Virus record (IMG/VR): IMGVR_UViG_645058813_000002
Span: 6,606-70,605 of that record
Direction: 5' to 3' (one strand)
DNA: 64,000 bases
Source: a virus
Made by a program: the position numbers and the translations under genes. The notes beneath the pieces are model-generated. The model had not been told where the DNA came from. It made no database searches and saw nothing but the letters and a program-made list of their open reading frames with translations. Positions 33,721 to 63,109 of this stretch are shown here, one piece after another. How positions within the stretch are numbered: position 1 is the stretch's first letter; each line of letters begins with the position of its first letter.

Positions 33721-33729
33721 TCTTTAAGG

Positions 33730-34116
33730 TGTCACAGCAAAATAAAGTCGTGTCAAAACTGCTAAAGTCGTGTCACGAAAAATAAAGTTGTGTTAAGTAT
33801 GTATGAAAGACTATGCAAAGAAGAATGGAGCGATCCTCTTCAAATGCATAGTCTTTTTTTGCGTGTTTTGGGAAATAAAATAGGAAAGAAGCCAGAAATA
33901 ATGAGGGATGAAGCAAGATAAAACAGAGCGTAAATTTTAAGCAGCATTCGCATCGGCAGCAGCCATGAGCAGAAAACTGTAGTTAATTTAGGCTCTTTAT
34001 GACACGACTTTATTTAACCCCTAATTTTGGAAAAAAGGGGTGAGGGGTGTGGTAGTAAGGGTTCAGGGACTGCTGGAAGTGCTTTTTTCGTGACACGACT
34101 TTTTTTTACTAATACA
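33730..34116 (+). mobile_element. Miniature Tn7-like element, copy 1 (387 bp)
   Basis: Three AAAGT(C/T)GTGT(C/T)A sites at 20-bp spacing after TGT; two inverted sites at 34000 and 34091 before ACA. Confidence 0.85.
33806..33860 (+). terminator. Hairpin/terminator inside the mini-element (also in copy 2)
   Basis: AAAGACTATGCA...TGCATAGTCTTT followed by a T-run. Confidence 0.65.
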
Positions 34117-34146
34117 TAGTAGGAAAGGATTTTAAAGTAATATTGA

Positions 34147-34314
34147 AAAATAAGGAAAGATCCACGAAGATTTTATATGAAGCCTGAAGATACTTTAATA
34201 TCTTCAGATAATGTTAAATTTGTAGTTAGTAATCAGTGGGGAAAAGATAATATTGATGCATTTATAAAAGTTTCTACCGAACTTGGTTTTGAAATAACAA
34301 GAGTTGAAGTATAA
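34147..34314 (+). pseudogene. C-terminal gene remnant next to mini-element copy 1
   Basis: KDPRRFYMKPEDTLISSDNVKFVVSNQWGKDNIDAFIKVSTELGFEITRVEV*; no upstream start, in-frame TGA at 34144. Confidence 0.6.
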
Positions 34315-34336
34315 AAAAGTTTAGGAGGACTTAATA

Positions 34337-34576
34337 ATGAACTGCAGAGAAATAAAAATAGGAAAGATATATAGACATTTTAAAGGCAATGAGTATTTGG
34401 TACTTTATATGGCAAAACATTCAGAAACGCTTGAAGATATGGTGGTTTATCAGGCCCTATATGGAGAAAAAGGAATATGGGTTAGGCCTCTGAGCATGTT
34501 TTTCGATACAAAAGAAGTTGATGGTAAGATTGTAAACAGATTTGAAGAGATTGATAATGAAATAGAATTAGTTTAA
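34337..34576 (+). CDS. DUF1653 family protein
   Basis: YRHFKGNEY...HSETLEDMVVYQALYGEKGIWVRP. Confidence 0.92.
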   Translation: MNCREIKIGKIYRHFKGNEYLVLYMAKHSETLEDMVVYQALYGEKGIWVRPLSMFFDTKEVDGKIVNRFEEIDNEIELV

Positions 34577-34708
34577 GAAATTTACCGTAATGTTGAAATT
34601 ATTGATGTAGAAAATCATGTTACTGGAAGAAAAGTAAAAGGAACAAAGTTGTTACTAAAATTGCAATGGTAAGTTAATTGAAGTTAATATCAAAAAGGAG
34701 AGTTTTAT

Positions 34709-58809: not shown

Positions 58810-61761
58810 ATGTCAGAATTTTTATCACTTATTAGTAACAAAATTCGAATCGAGCAGAAAGAGGCTTTAGAAAAGTTAGATGAATATCTTTCAGATAATG
58901 AAGAAAAATCATTTGCATTAATAAAAATGCCAACTGGAACAGGAAAAACAGGTGTAATTGCATGTGTGTCACACGCATTTGATAATTATAAGAATATTTT
59001 AATTATTACACCTAATAACCAATTACCGAAACAAATTAAAAATGAAATTTCCTTAGATTTTTGGAATAAGATATGAATGTCGAATCTATGTTCGAAATGT
59101 AAATATAAAATAATTAAAGGTATTAGTTCAAATATAAAAATCACTGATGAAAGAAGTATATTTATTGTTACAATCCAAGCATTATTATCAATAAAAAAAC
59201 AAAGAGAACACCTATATAATAAGTTGAAAGACAACATTAATTTGATAATATTTGATGAAGGACATAGAGAACCATCGCTAAAATGGAGAAATATAATTGA
59301 AGAATTTGAAAAGAAAACTATTCTGTTTACTGCTACTCCATATCGGAATGATAAATTGGGGTTTAAAATAGCAAGTAGATATAGTTACTATTTATCATAC
59401 GGGAAGGCTTTAAAACAAAGATATATAAAAGATGTACAGTTTGAGGCAATTGATAATAGGATAATTAATGACGAAGAAGCATTTGCTAAATACATATGTA
59501 ATTTGCACAGTGATAATGAAAAAATAATAATACGAAGTGATAATTCGCAAGATATTGCTAGCATTGTAAATAATATAAATAACTTATGCATTAATGATGG
59601 TCTTAAAAGAGGTATTGCAGTTGGAATACATAGCAGTTTTAAGAATGAGGATTATTTTAAAAAAAATTATAGTGAAATATTAAAAAAAGAGTTTTCTATT
59701 TTTGTACATCAAAATAAAATGGTAGAGGGGATAAATATCCCTGAGATTAACAAATTATTTTTCCATCAAACCTTTAAAAATTCGAGATCAATAGTACAGC
59801 AAATTGGTCGAGCAATAAGGAAACTAGATAATAATGACAATCTAGCAACAATTTATTTACCTGAAGAAGAGAAGAAAATTTATGAGGAACAGTGGCAATT
59901 ATTCATTGAATATGATGAAAAGTCTGGTAGAGAAGATAATAAAACAGGATATTTCAATAATAGATTTATAAGGAAATTTGATTTACATAATAAAGATTTT
60001 TTTAAGCAAATATATGTGCCTAAATCAGCAGTTATATACCATATAGATAGTAAAGATATAAAGTTCAAGAAGATTGTGAATTTAATTCGAGACAAAATTA
60101 TTAACCAAATACATGTAGTTGATTATAATGAAAAAATTTTCGAGAAAAGGGACATGTGGTTAATGTGCTATAAAAAAGAGAAAAATGCAGATATTTTGTT
60201 AAATGAAATTTTCGTTGAAACTACACTGGAATGTGCTGTCTTAGTAAAAGAAGAAAATATGATTTTTTATTATGATAGTAGTGGATTTAGTCTGCCAGTT
60301 CATGAATTGGAAACGGCAGTAGATCTTGTTAATAGTAATGAAATTATAAAGTTGTTAAACGAGAATTGTGATTTTAATTCTGTAAAATTAAATAACATAA
60401 TTCTTTCAGAGTTTGGAATACGGGAAAATAACTTAGTTGGAAAGTCAATACAGAATGTTAATTCAAGTTTAACCGAAAGTCTTGTTACATGTACAAACGT
60501 ATCTGCAAATGTTGAAAGTAGAGTTAAAAGAGATATAAATGTCTACTCATCAAAAGTTAAGGACAATGAAAAATGTAGTTTTGAAGAATATATGCAATGG
60601 GTAAAGGCAATTTCTAAAGAAATATTAACTAATAATACTAACTCATATTTTAAGCGTTTTGCAAAGATAGTAAATAGTGCAGAAACAGGAGATGTATCAT
60701 CAATTTTATTAAACTTATCTGAATTAGATGACAACCTTTATAAAATAATTAGAAGCAATGGAGAATATGAAAAAATTAGTGATTTTAGCAGTTGTTTTAC
60801 CGAAGTATGCAATGATTCATTTAAATTTAATATAGGTTCAGATTCCATAGAAGGGGTCTTAAAAATATATACTTATCGAAAAATGAAAAAAATAAGAGTT
60901 GAACTTACTAATAACAATTATTATATAGATAATGACGGAAGTATGGTTTCACTTGTTAATTACTTGAATAATGAAAATAAATTCACGGTAATGTTTAAAA
61001 CTGGAATAGTATATATGGGCGGCAATTTACTTAACCCTAATACTATTTATAAAGAAATTGATTTAGAAGATACTAGCATAGGTAAAATAATGTATCCAAT
61101 TTCTGAATTAGAAAGTTGCGAAAATGAAAAGTCTGGAAAAAAAGTAAATGTAAATATAATTAACTGCTGGCCCAACGATTCGATATTTGGAGTATTAATA
61201 AATTTGATAAAATCCAAAGATAAGAGGCTTTATGATGGAGAGATAGATTATCTAGTTTGTGATGATTTAGATAAAGAAATTGCAGATTTTATAGCGATTG
61301 ATACAACGAAAAATAAAGTAATATTAATTCATTGTAAACATAGTGGTAAAGGTGTAAGTGCTTCAACTTATCAGGATGCATGTGGACAGGCTAAGAAAAA
61401 CTTGGCCTATGTTATAAGAAATACAATAGATTCTCTAGAAGATAAAGTTCAATTGCATATAAATAGGTGGAATAATAACCCATGGGTGGATAAGGATAAA
61501 AAAATAGAAGTGTCACGTATAATGACTGATAAAATAACTGGAGAAGATTTTTGGGAAAAATATAAAGAAATACTTACTAATATAAATAGCACAGTTGAAG
61601 TTTGGATATTTGGAAATTTAACATCATATGGCAAATTAAAAACGCAATTAAAAAACAGTAACCCAGAGGAACAAGTAAATCAATTAATGTGGTTGCTTAA
61701 TTCAACAAATGAAACAATTTCTCAAGTGGGAGCAAAGTTAAGAATATTTTGCATGCCTTGA
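58810..61761 (+). pseudogene. SF2 (DExH) helicase with C-terminal nuclease-like domain, in-frame TGA at 59074-59076
   Basis: MPTGTGKT before the stop; DEGH, TATP, QQIGRAIR after it; C-terminal DDLDKEIADFIAID...IHCKH. Confidence 0.85.
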
Positions 61762-61880
61762 TTTGCATACAATATTTATTATGAATTGGTGTGACTAATT
61801 ATTTGAAGTTCAAATAATGCGAAACTTAAGGCAGGGCATTATTAATTTAAAAATTATTTTAAATTACAGGGGGAGAATAC

Positions 61881-62573
61881 ATGGAAATAAAAGATGTTAT
61901 CCAATCTATAGGTGTGATTACTACTATTATTTTTTCGTTAATTGCATTAGTTCAATCTTTACTGTCAAAGAAAAAATCTAAGATGGCTGAAGAGAGAGCG
62001 GAAAAGGCAAATCAGCTGTCAAATGAAGCAAATAACTTAGCGAATACTGCTTTAAATGAATCAAGGAAAGATTATATGCCACTTATTAAGTTTGTAGATG
62101 GAGTGGAAATTACTGAAAAAGATATAAATATACTTAGAAACGAAATTACTTTTGATTTTTACGATGCATTTTTCAATACGGATATTGACAAAAATACATT
62201 TATATGCATAAGCACAAAGATTAAAAATATTGGTAAGGGGATTGTTACAGGAATAAAAATTCAAGATTTTTTTATACAAAGTGGAAATAAAGTTTTAATT
62301 GATAGTAGGAGTGATGAACCAATAGAATCACTATGTTTTATAAAGAAATGTGAATGCGAGCAACAATTTATTTTAGATGGATCAGAGGAAACTATTATTA
62401 ATTTCATTATAACAGACAATATTATGGAAAGGGAGCCAATTAATAACTCAGAGTATGAGCAAAAGCATTTATGGGGAACTTATATAGATAATAAAATAAT
62501 ACATAATTCTTTCAGTGAGGCTAAGCCAAGAGAAAAAAACGTTATTAACAGAGAATATTTGATAAAAAAATAG
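61881..62573 (+). CDS. Hypothetical protein with N-terminal TM helix
   Basis: 230 aa, GGGGAG RBS; ends 24 bp before mini-element copy 2. Confidence 0.65.
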   Translation: MEIKDVIQSIGVITTIIFSLIALVQSLLSKKKSKMAEERAEKANQLSNEANNLANTALNESRKDYMPLIKFVDGVEITEKDINILRNEITFDFYDAFFNTDIDKNTFICISTKIKNIGKGIVTGIKIQDFFIQSGNKVLIDSRSDEPIESLCFIKKCECEQQFILDGSEETIINFIITDNIMEREPINNSEYEQKHLWGTYIDNKIIHNSFSEAKPREKNVINREYLIKK

Positions 62574-62596
62574 TTGATGTATGGTATGCTATACTA

Positions 62597-63073
62597 TGTC
62601 ACAGCAAAATAAAGTCGTGTCAAAACTGCTAAAGTCGTGTCACGAAAAATAAAGTTGTGTTAAGTATGTATGAAAGACTATGCAAAGAAGAATGGAGCGA
62701 TCCTCTTCAAATGCATAGTCTTTTTTTGCGTGTTTTGGGAAATAAAATAGGAAAGAAGCCAGAAATAATGAGGGATGAAGGAAGATAAAACAGAGCGTAA
62801 ATTTTAAGCAGCATTCGCATCGGCAGCAGCCATGAGCAGAAAACTGTAGTTAATTTAGGCTCTTTGTGACACAACTTTATTTTGCTAATCGGGGGGCATT
62901 ATTTCTTTTTTTATTCCGTTTTTACTCTTTTTTGTTATTATATAGGATAAAATTCTTGACACGACTTTATTTAACCCCTAATTTTGGAAAATAGGGATGA
63001 GGGGTGTGGTAGTGAGGGTTCAGGGACTGCTGGAAGTGCTTTTTTCGTGACACGACTTTTTTTTACTAATACA
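62597..63073 (+). mobile_element. Miniature Tn7-like element, copy 2 (477 bp)
   Basis: Near-identical to copy 1 plus 90 bp; inverted sites at 62867, 62957 and 63048. Confidence 0.85.
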
Positions 63074-63109
63074 TAAGGCTAATTGTTAAAGCTAAGTAAT
63101 TAGCTATAT

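What the first reader, a model, noticed from the sequence alone, without database searches (positions are those of the whole stretch)
33725..63078. 29.3-kb defence island mobilised as a composite of two miniature Tn7-like elements
Seen: TAAGG-TGT...ACA-TAAGG, a perfect 5-bp duplication around 33730-63073. Each boundary is a complete mini-element with both ends in direct orientation, and no transposase lies inside. Established: Tn7-family elements have TGT/ACA termini, asymmetric TnsB-site arrays and 5-bp TSDs, and normally have one end per side. Inference: a non-autonomous, IS-composite-like Tn7 architecture that captures defence cargo using Tns proteins in trans. The direct repeats would also allow RecA-mediated excision or amplification.
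Basis: partly seen in the sequence, partly recalled or inferred. Interest (0 to 1): 0.85.

Follow-up and report, generated by a model that had tools for sequence, protein, structure and literature searches.

The report
Mini-Tn7-bounded defence island, moved whole
A 29.3-kb block of anti-phage defence genes in a Clostridium chromosome is bounded by two gene-less miniature Tn7-type transposons and entered its site as one piece; this is a clear new example of a known way of moving cargo, not a new kind of system.

Summary
TAAGG at 33725-33729 and 63074-63078 flanks a 29,344-bp segment (33730-63073) that starts TGT and ends ACA. Each boundary is a complete gene-less mini-element (387 and 477 bp, same direction, 98.7% identical). 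Related strains carry the predicted empty site with exactly one TAAGG.

The ends are Tn7-family. They match, in register, a glmS-linked tnsA-tnsB-tnsC element of the same genus. Three lineages have such minis 9-10 nt past the stop of a GGGtGRT gene, which suggests a new attachment site.

The island lies in the chromosome about 70 bp beyond a prophage attR, not inside the phage. It encodes no transposase.

The reading "two MITEs captured defence genes" is only partly supported:
- The left cargo block is 95% identical to cargo behind resolvase-tnsABCD in another contig, and is truncated here.
- The inner junction sequences recur in other genomes with other cargo.
- The two minis are far closer to each other than to the mini on the orthologous cargo.

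One-step transposition from the outer ends is my best reading (about 0.5). A replicative cointegrate and recombination of a circle into a resident mini remain open. No cognate transposase was found. The closest precedent is the Acinetobacter 439-bp MITE composites.

The parts
33472..33508 (+). Prophage attR arm-type sites (TTGTCAAC x2 plus one inverted). They mark the right end of the prophage, so the island lies outside it.
   Evidence: The same octamer occurs twice next to the integrase gene at the other end of the record and nowhere else.
33649..33720 (+). Displaced last 23 codons and stop of a GGGtGRT (PF14057) gene. This is the gene-proximal side of the insertion site.
Evidence: Strains without the prophage have the intact 333-aa PF14057 gene ending in the same sequence.
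33725..33729 (.). Left copy of the 5-bp target duplication TAAGG.
33730..34116 (+). Left mini-element (387 bp). It has a TGT terminus, three sites at 20-bp spacing (33744, 33764, 33784), a terminator-like hairpin, two inverted sites (34000, 34091) and an ACA terminus. It lacks 90 bp that are present in the right copy.
34117..34155 (+). Inner junction 'Y': TAGTA plus about 35 bp. It has no homology to the truncated gene that follows. Similar sequence follows the first mini of G009.
34156..34311 (+). Remnant of a PDDEXK_4 nuclease gene (last 52 of 430 codons). This is the truncated left boundary of the cargo.
   Evidence: tblastn 86.5% to residues 379-430 of the L086 protein. The 5' part is absent from the record.
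34337..38003 (+). Cargo block 1: DUF1653 (shortened), DUF429 nuclease-like protein, a 191-aa protein, and a CoiA-type nuclease with a Top1 zinc ribbon.
   Evidence: Pfam. 94.9% DNA identity to cargo behind tnsABCD in L086.
39353..40819 (+). Endonuclease effector-like protein (PADLOC PDLC00735).
42079..47777 (+). Two adjacent GmrSD_N-domain proteins (980 and 919 aa).
48107..48988 (+). PLD-family nuclease.
52182..53469 (+). Frameshifted gene. It is one 430-aa protein in L082.
   Evidence: tblastn hits in two frames, 52182-52619 and 52654-53469.
53630..57005 (+). Lamassu operon lmuA-lmuC-lmuB. lmuA carries an in-frame TAA at 54305.
   Evidence: PADLOC LmuA 2.4e-28, LmuC 1.8e-7, LmuB 8.8e-92. Read-through alignment at 99% to the L082 protein.
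57500..58657 (+). RES-domain protein.
58810..61761 (+). ResIII helicase fused to a PDC-S71-like region, interrupted by an in-frame TGA at 59074.
61881..62573 (+). Last cargo gene (230 aa, unknown function). Its C-terminus is complete and it has an internal 31-aa deletion.
   Evidence: Alignment with 7 homologues.
62574..62596 (+). Inner junction 'X', ending TATACTA. The same 7 bp, and about 25 bp of similar sequence, precede minis in C. puniceum, G009, G038 and L082.
62597..63073 (+). Right mini-element (477 bp). It has three packed sites (62611, 62631, 62651), a hairpin, and three spaced inverted sites (62867, 62957, 63048).
63074..63078 (.). Right copy of the target duplication TAAGG.
63079..63150 (+). 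Downstream half of the target: a hairpin and the terminator of the GGGtGRT gene.
   Evidence: Contiguous with the gene in empty alleles.

Best explanation
The segment 33730-63073 is a non-autonomous Tn7-family transposon whose two boundaries are complete miniature elements in the same orientation. A TnsB-type transposase supplied in trans paired the outermost termini: the packed-site end of the left mini and the spaced-site end of the right mini. It inserted the whole 29.3 kb by cut-and-paste, 9 nt downstream of the stop codon of a GGGtGRT gene, with the packed-site end facing the gene, and this made the 5-bp TAAGG duplication.

Shown: the duplication, the empty site, the Tn7-type end architecture, the absence of tns genes, and the recurrent position and orientation next to the GGGtGRT gene.

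Inferred: that the outer ends were used in a single event, that a TnsD/TniQ-like selector recognises the GGGtGRT 3' end, and that the transposase is of the TnsA-containing cut-and-paste type.

The cargo (Lamassu, two GmrSD-like proteins, PLD and other nucleases, RES, a helicase) is ordinary Tn7-type defence cargo. It is a mosaic acquired by recombination with other Tn7-like elements, and it is now decaying, with four broken genes.
For: TAAGG appears on both sides, and a single TAAGG appears in empty alleles L037 and L042, with identical flanks for more than 100 bp.

The site motif is confined to the two minis: 3 packed plus 2-3 spaced sites.

The glmS-linked element in G023 reads TGT, 11 nt, then four sites AAAGTYGTATCR at 20-bp spacing, followed by tnsA (PF08722/PF08721), tnsB and tnsC. 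This is the same register as the mini. Because these relatives encode TnsA, cut-and-paste is the expected chemistry (Benler et al. 2021, PMC8649781).

A single mini in L010 has its own 5-bp duplication.

Minis sit 9, 9 and 10 nt after the GGGtGRT stop in the window, in L081 and in G009, with the same orientation, although the minis are only 55-90% identical.

The same architecture (mini, 25 kb of BREX genes, mini) occurs at the orthologous site in G009.

The right cargo block plus X junction plus mini recurs in L082 with a different outer flank.

Published precedent: pairs of 439-bp MITEs in the same direction move integrons and leave 5-bp repeats at several sites (PMC3934969).
Against: No transposase whose ends carry AAAGTCGTGTCA was found. 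The nearest have GTATCG sites, and the tnsABCD element that shares cargo (L086) has a TnsB only 43% identical and no such sites in its contig.

The two minis are 98.7% identical to each other but only 88-91% identical to the mini attached to the 95%-identical cargo in L082. If the pair were old, this would require gene conversion; a recent duplication of the mini fits more simply.

The composite was seen at only one site with both flanks visible. G009's outer flanks (CCAAC / ATTAT) are not a duplication.

Classical Tn7 target immunity would disfavour two ends lying so close together.
Confidence: 0.5

Rival explanations
1. Unresolved replicative cointegrate, analogous to an IS26 pseudo-compound transposon. 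A circular molecule carrying the cargo and one mini-element fused with the chromosome by replicative transposition. This duplicated the mini and left the 5-bp duplication on the outside. With no resolution site or resolvase, the structure stayed.
For: The copies are direct, the duplication lies only on the outside, and neither mini has its own duplication. The two minis are sisters (98.7%) while the orthologous mini in L082 is 89% identical. The X and Y junction sequences are conserved next to minis in other genomes, as expected if one mini with fixed flanks travels on a circle. The inner 5-mers TAGTA and TACTA match 4/5 as direct repeats. Tn7-like elements without active TnsA transpose replicatively, and a Tn7-like operon with a serine resolvase carries the same cargo (PMC8649781).
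Against: The closest bona fide relatives, and L086, encode TnsA, which predicts cut-and-paste. The inner 5-mers are not identical here, and match only 2/5 in G009, where they are exact reverse complements instead. No replication or partition gene is recognisable in the cargo. There is no similarity to any plasmid or phage record. The gene fragment at the left boundary is not completed at the right boundary.
Confidence: 0.22
2. Two-step origin. A single mini-element first inserted at TAAGG. Later a circle (cargo plus one mini, for example looped out of a composite elsewhere) integrated into it by homologous or site-specific recombination. This placed the cargo between two hybrid minis, with the old duplication on the outside.
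For: The result has the same geometry as observed. The minis offer 387 bp of homology. The two copies differ by a 90-bp indel and 5 substitutions, as hybrids of two alleles might. Cargo blocks are clearly exchanged between elements. Zong 2014 also lists homologous recombination as an option for the Acinetobacter MITE structures.
Against: No solo-mini allele was seen at this site among the 9 contexts shown for the flanking gene; alleles were either empty or filled. The differences between the copies show no left/right mosaic pattern against outgroups.
Confidence: 0.15
3. In-situ decay. An autonomous tnsABCD element with these ends inserted here and made the TAAGG duplication. Minis later nested near both ends, and recombination with the true ends deleted the tns genes.
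For: The left cargo block lies directly behind tnsD in L086, and the window keeps only the 3' end of the first cargo gene. Several cargo genes are decaying.
Against: It needs two nested insertions and two deletions. The L086 contig shows no sites of this type. The same X and Y junctions occur in other species with other cargo, so they did not arise in this strain.
Confidence: 0.08

Closest known systems
Acinetobacter 439-bp MITE-flanked integron structures (Gillings 2009; Domingues 2011, 2013; Zong 2014, PMC3934969)
   Same: Two copies of a gene-less miniature element of about 0.4 kb, in the same direction, flank cargo. The whole structure is bracketed by a 5-bp direct repeat. The transposase is unknown and assumed to act in trans. 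Both transposition and homologous recombination have been proposed.
   Different: In Acinetobacter the composite was seen at several different sites with different 5-bp repeats, which is the proof of mobility still lacking here. Its cargo is resistance integrons, not defence genes. It shows no site specificity. Its minis are identical, whereas here they are 98.7% identical with a 90-bp indel.
Tn7 and glmS-targeting Tn7-like transposons with defence cargo (Peters/Craig; Benler et al. 2021, PMC8649781)
   Same: TGT/ACA termini, a 5-bp duplication and arrays of about 20-bp transposase sites that are packed at the end facing the target gene and spaced at the other end. Insertion is just downstream of a conserved gene, in one orientation. 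The cargo is rich in defence systems.
   Different: There are no tnsABCD genes. Each boundary carries both kinds of end. The target is the 3' end of a GGGtGRT gene (9-10 nt past the stop) instead of glmS (about 25 nt). The term GGGtGRT does not occur in the main text of Benler et al..
IS26 pseudo-compound transposons / translocatable units, and unresolved cointegrates of TnsA-less Tn7 or Tn5053-type elements
   Same: Direct repeats of the mobile unit flank the cargo, with the target duplication on the outside only. The flanking copies are near-identical.
   Different: A replicative mechanism is not shown here, relatives encode TnsA, and the inner flanks are not a clean direct repeat.
Stacked Tn7-like insertions at one attachment site (islands at glmS or comM)
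   Same: Head-to-tail arrays do occur in this family. In L010 the same 5-mer ATTAC lies on both sides of a mini that abuts another element's end. L013 and L079 show similar abutting ends.
   Different: In the window the inner flanks (TAGTA, TACTA) differ from the outer duplication, and the cargo has no termini of its own. It is therefore not a stack of independent insertions.

Membership tests
Tn7-like transposon (end architecture) | Termini 5'-TGT ... ACA-3' | tested here: met
   33730-33732 and 63071-63073. The same holds for each mini individually.
Tn7-like transposon (end architecture) | 5-bp target-site duplication | tested here: met
   TAAGG on both sides, and single in empty alleles L037 and L042. 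A solo mini in L010 is flanked by ATTAC on both sides.
Tn7-like transposon (end architecture) | Several transposase-binding repeats of about 20 bp, arranged asymmetrically at the two ends | tested here: met
   3 sites at exact 20-bp spacing at one end and 2-3 sites about 91 bp apart at the other. 11 exact motif hits, all inside the minis.
Tn7-like transposon (end architecture) | Ends homologous to those of an element that encodes TnsA, TnsB and TnsC | tested here: met
   The G023 element next to glmS has TGT, its first site at nt 15, AAAGTYGTATCR x4 at 20-bp spacing, then tnsA (PF08722 1.6e-21), tnsB and tnsC. The sites are similar, not identical.
Tn7-like transposon (autonomous) | Encodes TnsB and TnsC (with or without TnsA, TnsD/TniQ) | tested here: not met
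   No such domains in the cargo. No tblastn hit in the 79.6-kb record. The island is therefore non-autonomous.
Tn7-like transposon | A cognate transposase in the same genome that recognises these ends | not testable with these tools
In 122 scored genomes of the genus, no tnsB locus had AAAGTCGTGTCA sites.
Tn7-like transposon | Site- and orientation-specific insertion downstream of a conserved gene | tested here: met
   The packed-site end lies 9, 9 and 10 nt after the GGGtGRT stop in the window, in L081 and in G009.
Composite (compound) transposon built from MITEs | Two copies of an individually mobile element flank the cargo | tested here: met
Composite (compound) transposon built from MITEs | The target duplication brackets the whole structure and not the single copies | tested here: met
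   Outer TAAGG/TAAGG; inner TAGTA and TACTA.
Composite (compound) transposon built from MITEs | The same composite at a second site with its own duplication | tested here: inconclusive
   L082 has the same right cargo, X junction and mini with a different right flank (ACCAA...), but its left end lies outside the contig. G009 has the same architecture without matching outer flanks.
Replicative cointegrate / pseudo-compound transposon | The inner flanks are the two copies of one donor duplication (identical direct 5-mers) | tested here: not met
   TAGTA vs TACTA (4/5). In G009, TAGTT vs AACTA (2/5). In both genomes the pair is an exact reverse complement.
Replicative cointegrate / pseudo-compound transposon | The flanking copies derive from one copy at the time of insertion | tested here: inconclusive
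   98.7% identity plus a 90-bp indel between the copies, against 88-91% to all other minis.

The most novel reading that the evidence does not exclude
The structure [mini - Y junction - cargo - X junction - mini] may be a conserved, dedicated carrier form of a Tn7-like lineage in Clostridium. On this reading one mini with fixed flanks travels with exchangeable defence cargo, possibly as a circle that re-integrates and duplicates its mini each time. It homes to a previously undescribed attachment site at the 3' end of the GGGtGRT gene. The palindromic inner flanks (wACTA|TGT ... ACA|TAGTw) would be a functional part of that cycle.
Probability: 0.2. Interest if true: 0.7.

Novelty: new variant of a known kind. 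Interest (0 to 1): 0.5.

Why it matters
This case shows that Tn7-family elements can move large defence islands without carrying their own transposase, as units bounded by miniature elements. Surveys that find Tn7-like cargo by first locating tnsB would miss such islands.

It also points to the 3' end of the GGGtGRT gene as a Tn7-type attachment site and defence hot spot in Clostridium. At that one site I saw this island, a BREX island between minis, integrase-borne islands and prophages.

The case is clean enough to test which ends are used: the filled and empty alleles are both in hand.

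Tried and rejected
I reject this. The last cargo protein has a complete C-terminus compared with 7 homologues. The fragment at 34156-34311 is the end of a 430-aa PDDEXK_4 protein whose 5' part is nowhere in the record.

(2) The island as part of the prophage: rejected. The attR arm sites lie at 33472-33508 and the displaced gene end at 33649-33720, both left of the insertion.

(3) Stacked independent insertions: rejected, because the inner flanks differ from the outer duplication and the cargo has no termini of its own.

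(4) Tn7-like elements of G002, G007, G069 and the second one of G023 as parents: their tnsA-proximal regions hold no matching sites.

(5) Searches that found nothing:
- Rfam on the mini.
- Plasmid and phage collections, with the cargo and with the mini.
- Viral contigs, with the site pattern.
- The 45-aa fragment across the genus.

I did not use read laying, because a 20-kb reference cannot hold both minis.

I did not try to get round this.

Full report
**What is there.** The window is bases 6606-70605 of a 79.6-kb record classed as a provirus.

- At 33725-33729 and 63074-63078 the sequence reads TAAGG. Immediately inside are TGT (33730) and ACA (63073).
- The left boundary, 33730-34116, and the right boundary, 62597-63073, are two copies of one gene-less element in the same orientation.
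- Aligned, they differ by 5 substitutions and one 90-bp deletion in the left copy, giving 98.7% identity.
- Each copy begins TGT, then 11 nt, then three repeats of AAAGTYGTGTYA at exactly 20-bp spacing, then a terminator-like hairpin.
- Each copy ends with two (left copy) or three (right copy) inverted copies of the same motif about 91 bp apart, followed by ...ACTAATACA.
- All 11 exact motif hits in the 64-kb window lie in these two elements. At up to one mismatch there are 12 hits, against 1.6 expected by chance, and 0 of 100 shuffles reach 12.
- A 5/5 flank match at fixed positions has probability 0.0028 in this composition.

**Empty site and assembly check.**

- The exact last cargo protein occurs in about 20 contigs, including a 3.86-Mb chromosome contig.
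- The flanking DUF3791 gene occurs in many more strains.
- Two assemblies (L037, L042) read ...AACAAATAGTCTT-TAAGG-CTAATTGTTAAAGC... with a single TAAGG. Their long right flank is the same as in the window.
- Other strains have the intact GGGtGRT gene followed by TGAA, TTGA or AATTGG at that position.
- A paralogous remnant 1.1 kb downstream in the same record has AAAGG.
- The filled right junction is present in at least six independent assemblies. The left junction lies in a multi-megabase contig. The repeats are therefore not an assembly artefact.

**Where it sits.**

- The record has an integrase at its far left, then replication, structural and lysis genes up to about 29 kb of the window.
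- The octamer TTGTCAAC occurs twice next to the integrase and twice (plus once inverted) at 33472-33508, and nowhere else. These are arm-type sites of attL and attR.
- Just after them lie the last 23 codons of a GGGtGRT (PF14057) gene, at 33649-33720. In prophage-free strains this is the end of an intact 333-aa gene.
- The island therefore lies in the chromosome, about 70 bp beyond the prophage end and 9 nt after the displaced stop codon. The 'provirus' call over-extends.

**Family.**

- A single mini (89% identical) in Clostridium sp. C2-6-12 is flanked by ATTAC on both sides. The mini is therefore a mobile unit that makes 5-bp duplications.
- In genome G023, glmS is followed after 25 nt by TGT, 11 nt, and four repeats AAAGTYGTATCR at 20-bp spacing. 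Then come tnsA (PF08722 and PF08721), tnsB (Mu-transpos_C) and tnsC (AAA_22/TniB).
- G041 has the same type of element. Six further glmS-linked relatives show the same architecture with other site sequences.
- The minis thus share terminus, register, spacing and most of the site consensus with bona fide TnsA-containing Tn7-like transposons of the same genus.
- None of the 26 tnsB loci found in 122 scored genomes has the exact GTGTCA-type site. The mobiliser is still unidentified.

**A recurrent target.**

- In the window, in a metagenome contig (L081, mini 90% identical) and in genome G009 (minis about 55% identical), the packed-site end lies 9, 9 and 10 nt after the GGGtGRT stop codon, in the same orientation.
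- This is the behaviour of the TnsD/TniQ pathway of Tn7, with a different target gene.
- G009 shows the same architecture: mini, about 25 kb that begins with brxA, brxB and brxC, a second mini, then a further end remnant.
- G009's outer flanks (CCAAC, ATTAT) are not a duplication, and its two minis are only 87.9% identical to each other.

**The cargo.**

- Contents: DUF1653; DUF429; a CoiA-type nuclease with a zinc ribbon; an endonuclease effector-like protein; two GmrSD_N proteins; a PLD nuclease; Lamassu lmuA-lmuC-lmuB; a RES protein; and a ResIII helicase fused to a PDC-S71-like region.
- There is no transposase, integrase, resolvase or replication gene.
- The cargo is a mosaic. 34592-38376 is 94.9% identical to a Logan contig (L086/L090) in which the same genes follow resolvase-tnsA-tnsB-tnsC-tnsD, a 116-aa gene and a 430-aa PDDEXK_4 gene.
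- The window keeps only the last 52 codons of that PDDEXK_4 gene (34156-34311). The remnant is separated from the mini by 39 bp of unrelated sequence.
- 51891-62457 is 94.9% identical to another contig (L082). That contig continues through the same inner junction into a mini (89% identical) and then into a different flank, ACCAACATT....
- Compared with L082, the window has a frameshift near 52620-52654, an in-frame TAA in lmuA (54305) and an in-frame TGA in the helicase (59074). The island is decaying.

**Inner junctions.**

- Neither mini has its own duplication. The left one is followed by TAGTA; the right one is preceded by TACTA.
- The sequence before the right mini (X, ending TATACTA) recurs before minis in C. 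puniceum, G009 (third end), G038 and L082. Up to about 28 bp are shared, although the adjacent genes differ.
- The sequence after the left mini (Y) resembles that after the first G009 mini.
- In both the window and G009 the two inner 5-mers are exact reverse complements (TAGTA/TACTA; TAGTT/AACTA). I cannot explain this.
- It does show that the double-ended scaffold is older than this insertion and is shared between species, with the cargo exchanged inside it.

**How it got here.** Three routes give the observed geometry.

(a) Cut-and-paste from the two outermost ends, as in the published Acinetobacter MITE composites (PMC3934969).
   - In favour: relatives encode TnsA, the scaffold recurs, and the outer ends are intact while the inner end of the left mini has lost one site.
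   - Against: the two minis are much closer to each other (98.7%) than to the orthologous mini of L082 (89%). On this route that would need gene conversion.

(b) A replicative cointegrate, or an event like an IS26 translocatable unit.
   - This explains the sister minis and the conserved X and Y flanks of a single travelling mini.
   - It fits the known replicative behaviour of Tn7-like elements without active TnsA (PMC8649781).
   - Against: the inner 5-mers are not a direct repeat, no replication gene is present, and the relatives have TnsA.

(c) Recombination of a circle into a resident solo mini.
   - No solo allele was seen among the contexts shown.

I put these at 0.50, 0.22 and 0.15, with 0.08 for in-situ decay of an autonomous ancestor.

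**Comparison and novelty.**

- Tn7-like transposons carrying defence systems at safe attachment sites are well known (PMC8649781).
- MITE pairs that move cargo and leave 5-bp repeats are known in Acinetobacter (PMC3934969).
- A full-text search found no paper that links Tn7-like elements with MITE composites, or with GGGtGRT as a target.
- Earlier notes of this scan report mini-Tn7 elements elsewhere, including one fused to a full element.
- This is therefore a new variant of a known kind: a transposase-less, double-ended Tn7-family carrier of a defence island at an undescribed attachment site, with filled and empty alleles both available.

Noticed in passing
window 33472-33720 and G000:80-98: The 'provirus' record over-extends. 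The prophage attR (arm sites TTGTCAAC) and the displaced GGGtGRT 3' end lie left of the island. The prophage integrase and the Tn7-like element both use the 3' end of the same gene.
   Followed up: partly
G000:70740-70850 (about 135-245 bp beyond the window end): A second remnant of the GGGtGRT 3' end plus terminator, with an uninterrupted spacer AAAGG. It served as an internal paralogous empty site.
   Followed up: yes
window 34117-34121 and 62592-62596; L026 534-538; L027 812-816: The inner flanks of the minis are exact reverse complements in two genomes (TAGTA/TACTA and TAGTT/AACTA). The inverted repeat therefore effectively extends 5 bp beyond TGT/ACA at inner junctions only. Unexplained.
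   Followed up: partly
window 62574-62596; L008 2704-2731; L027 1708-1735; L023 1084-1100; L082 10834-10856: A junction sequence of about 25 bp ending TATACTA precedes the packed-site end in five genomes with unrelated upstream genes.
   Followed up: partly
window 33806-33862 and 62673-62729: A terminator-like hairpin directly after the three packed sites is kept in diverged minis (G009, G038, G007) with different stem sequences. The glmS-linked Tn7-like elements have a hairpin at the same place. It could shield the element from read-through from the target gene.
   Followed up: no
window 52620-52654, 54305-54307, 59074-59076, 34156-34311: Four cargo genes are broken: a frameshift, an in-frame TAA in lmuA, an in-frame TGA in the helicase, and a 5'-truncated PDDEXK_4 gene. 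The Lamassu system is probably inactive in this strain.
   Followed up: yes
L086 604-7395 (Logan SRR15661546_5228): An operon of a serine resolvase overlapping tnsA, then tnsB, tnsC and tnsD/tniQ, followed by the same cargo genes as the window's left block. A resolvase together with TnsA is an unusual pairing. The ends of this element were not identified.
   Followed up: partly
L037 and L042 1-9640: In strains with the empty site, a different island (BrxC/PglY-like protein, helicase, HATPase, PLD, GmrSD) ends with arm-like sites and another displaced GGGtGRT 3' end. That is an integrase-borne defence island using the same gene.
   Followed up: no
L010 1-700: A mini abuts the ACA end of a different, diverged element, with the same 5-mer ATTAC on both sides of the mini. 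This indicates repeated insertion at one target position (stacking).
   Followed up: partly
L028 (C. puniceum contig 14) 571-10706: The DNA upstream of the X junction and mini in C. puniceum is an array of polymorphic-toxin immunity genes (SUKH/SMI1, Imm33, DUF6985) rather than phage-defence genes. That mini is cut by an IS91-family element.
   Followed up: partly
window 30376-31624: A ThsB-type TIR protein (PF08937, from the gene table of L047) lies in the prophage accessory region. It is the subject of another note and was not examined here.
   Followed up: no
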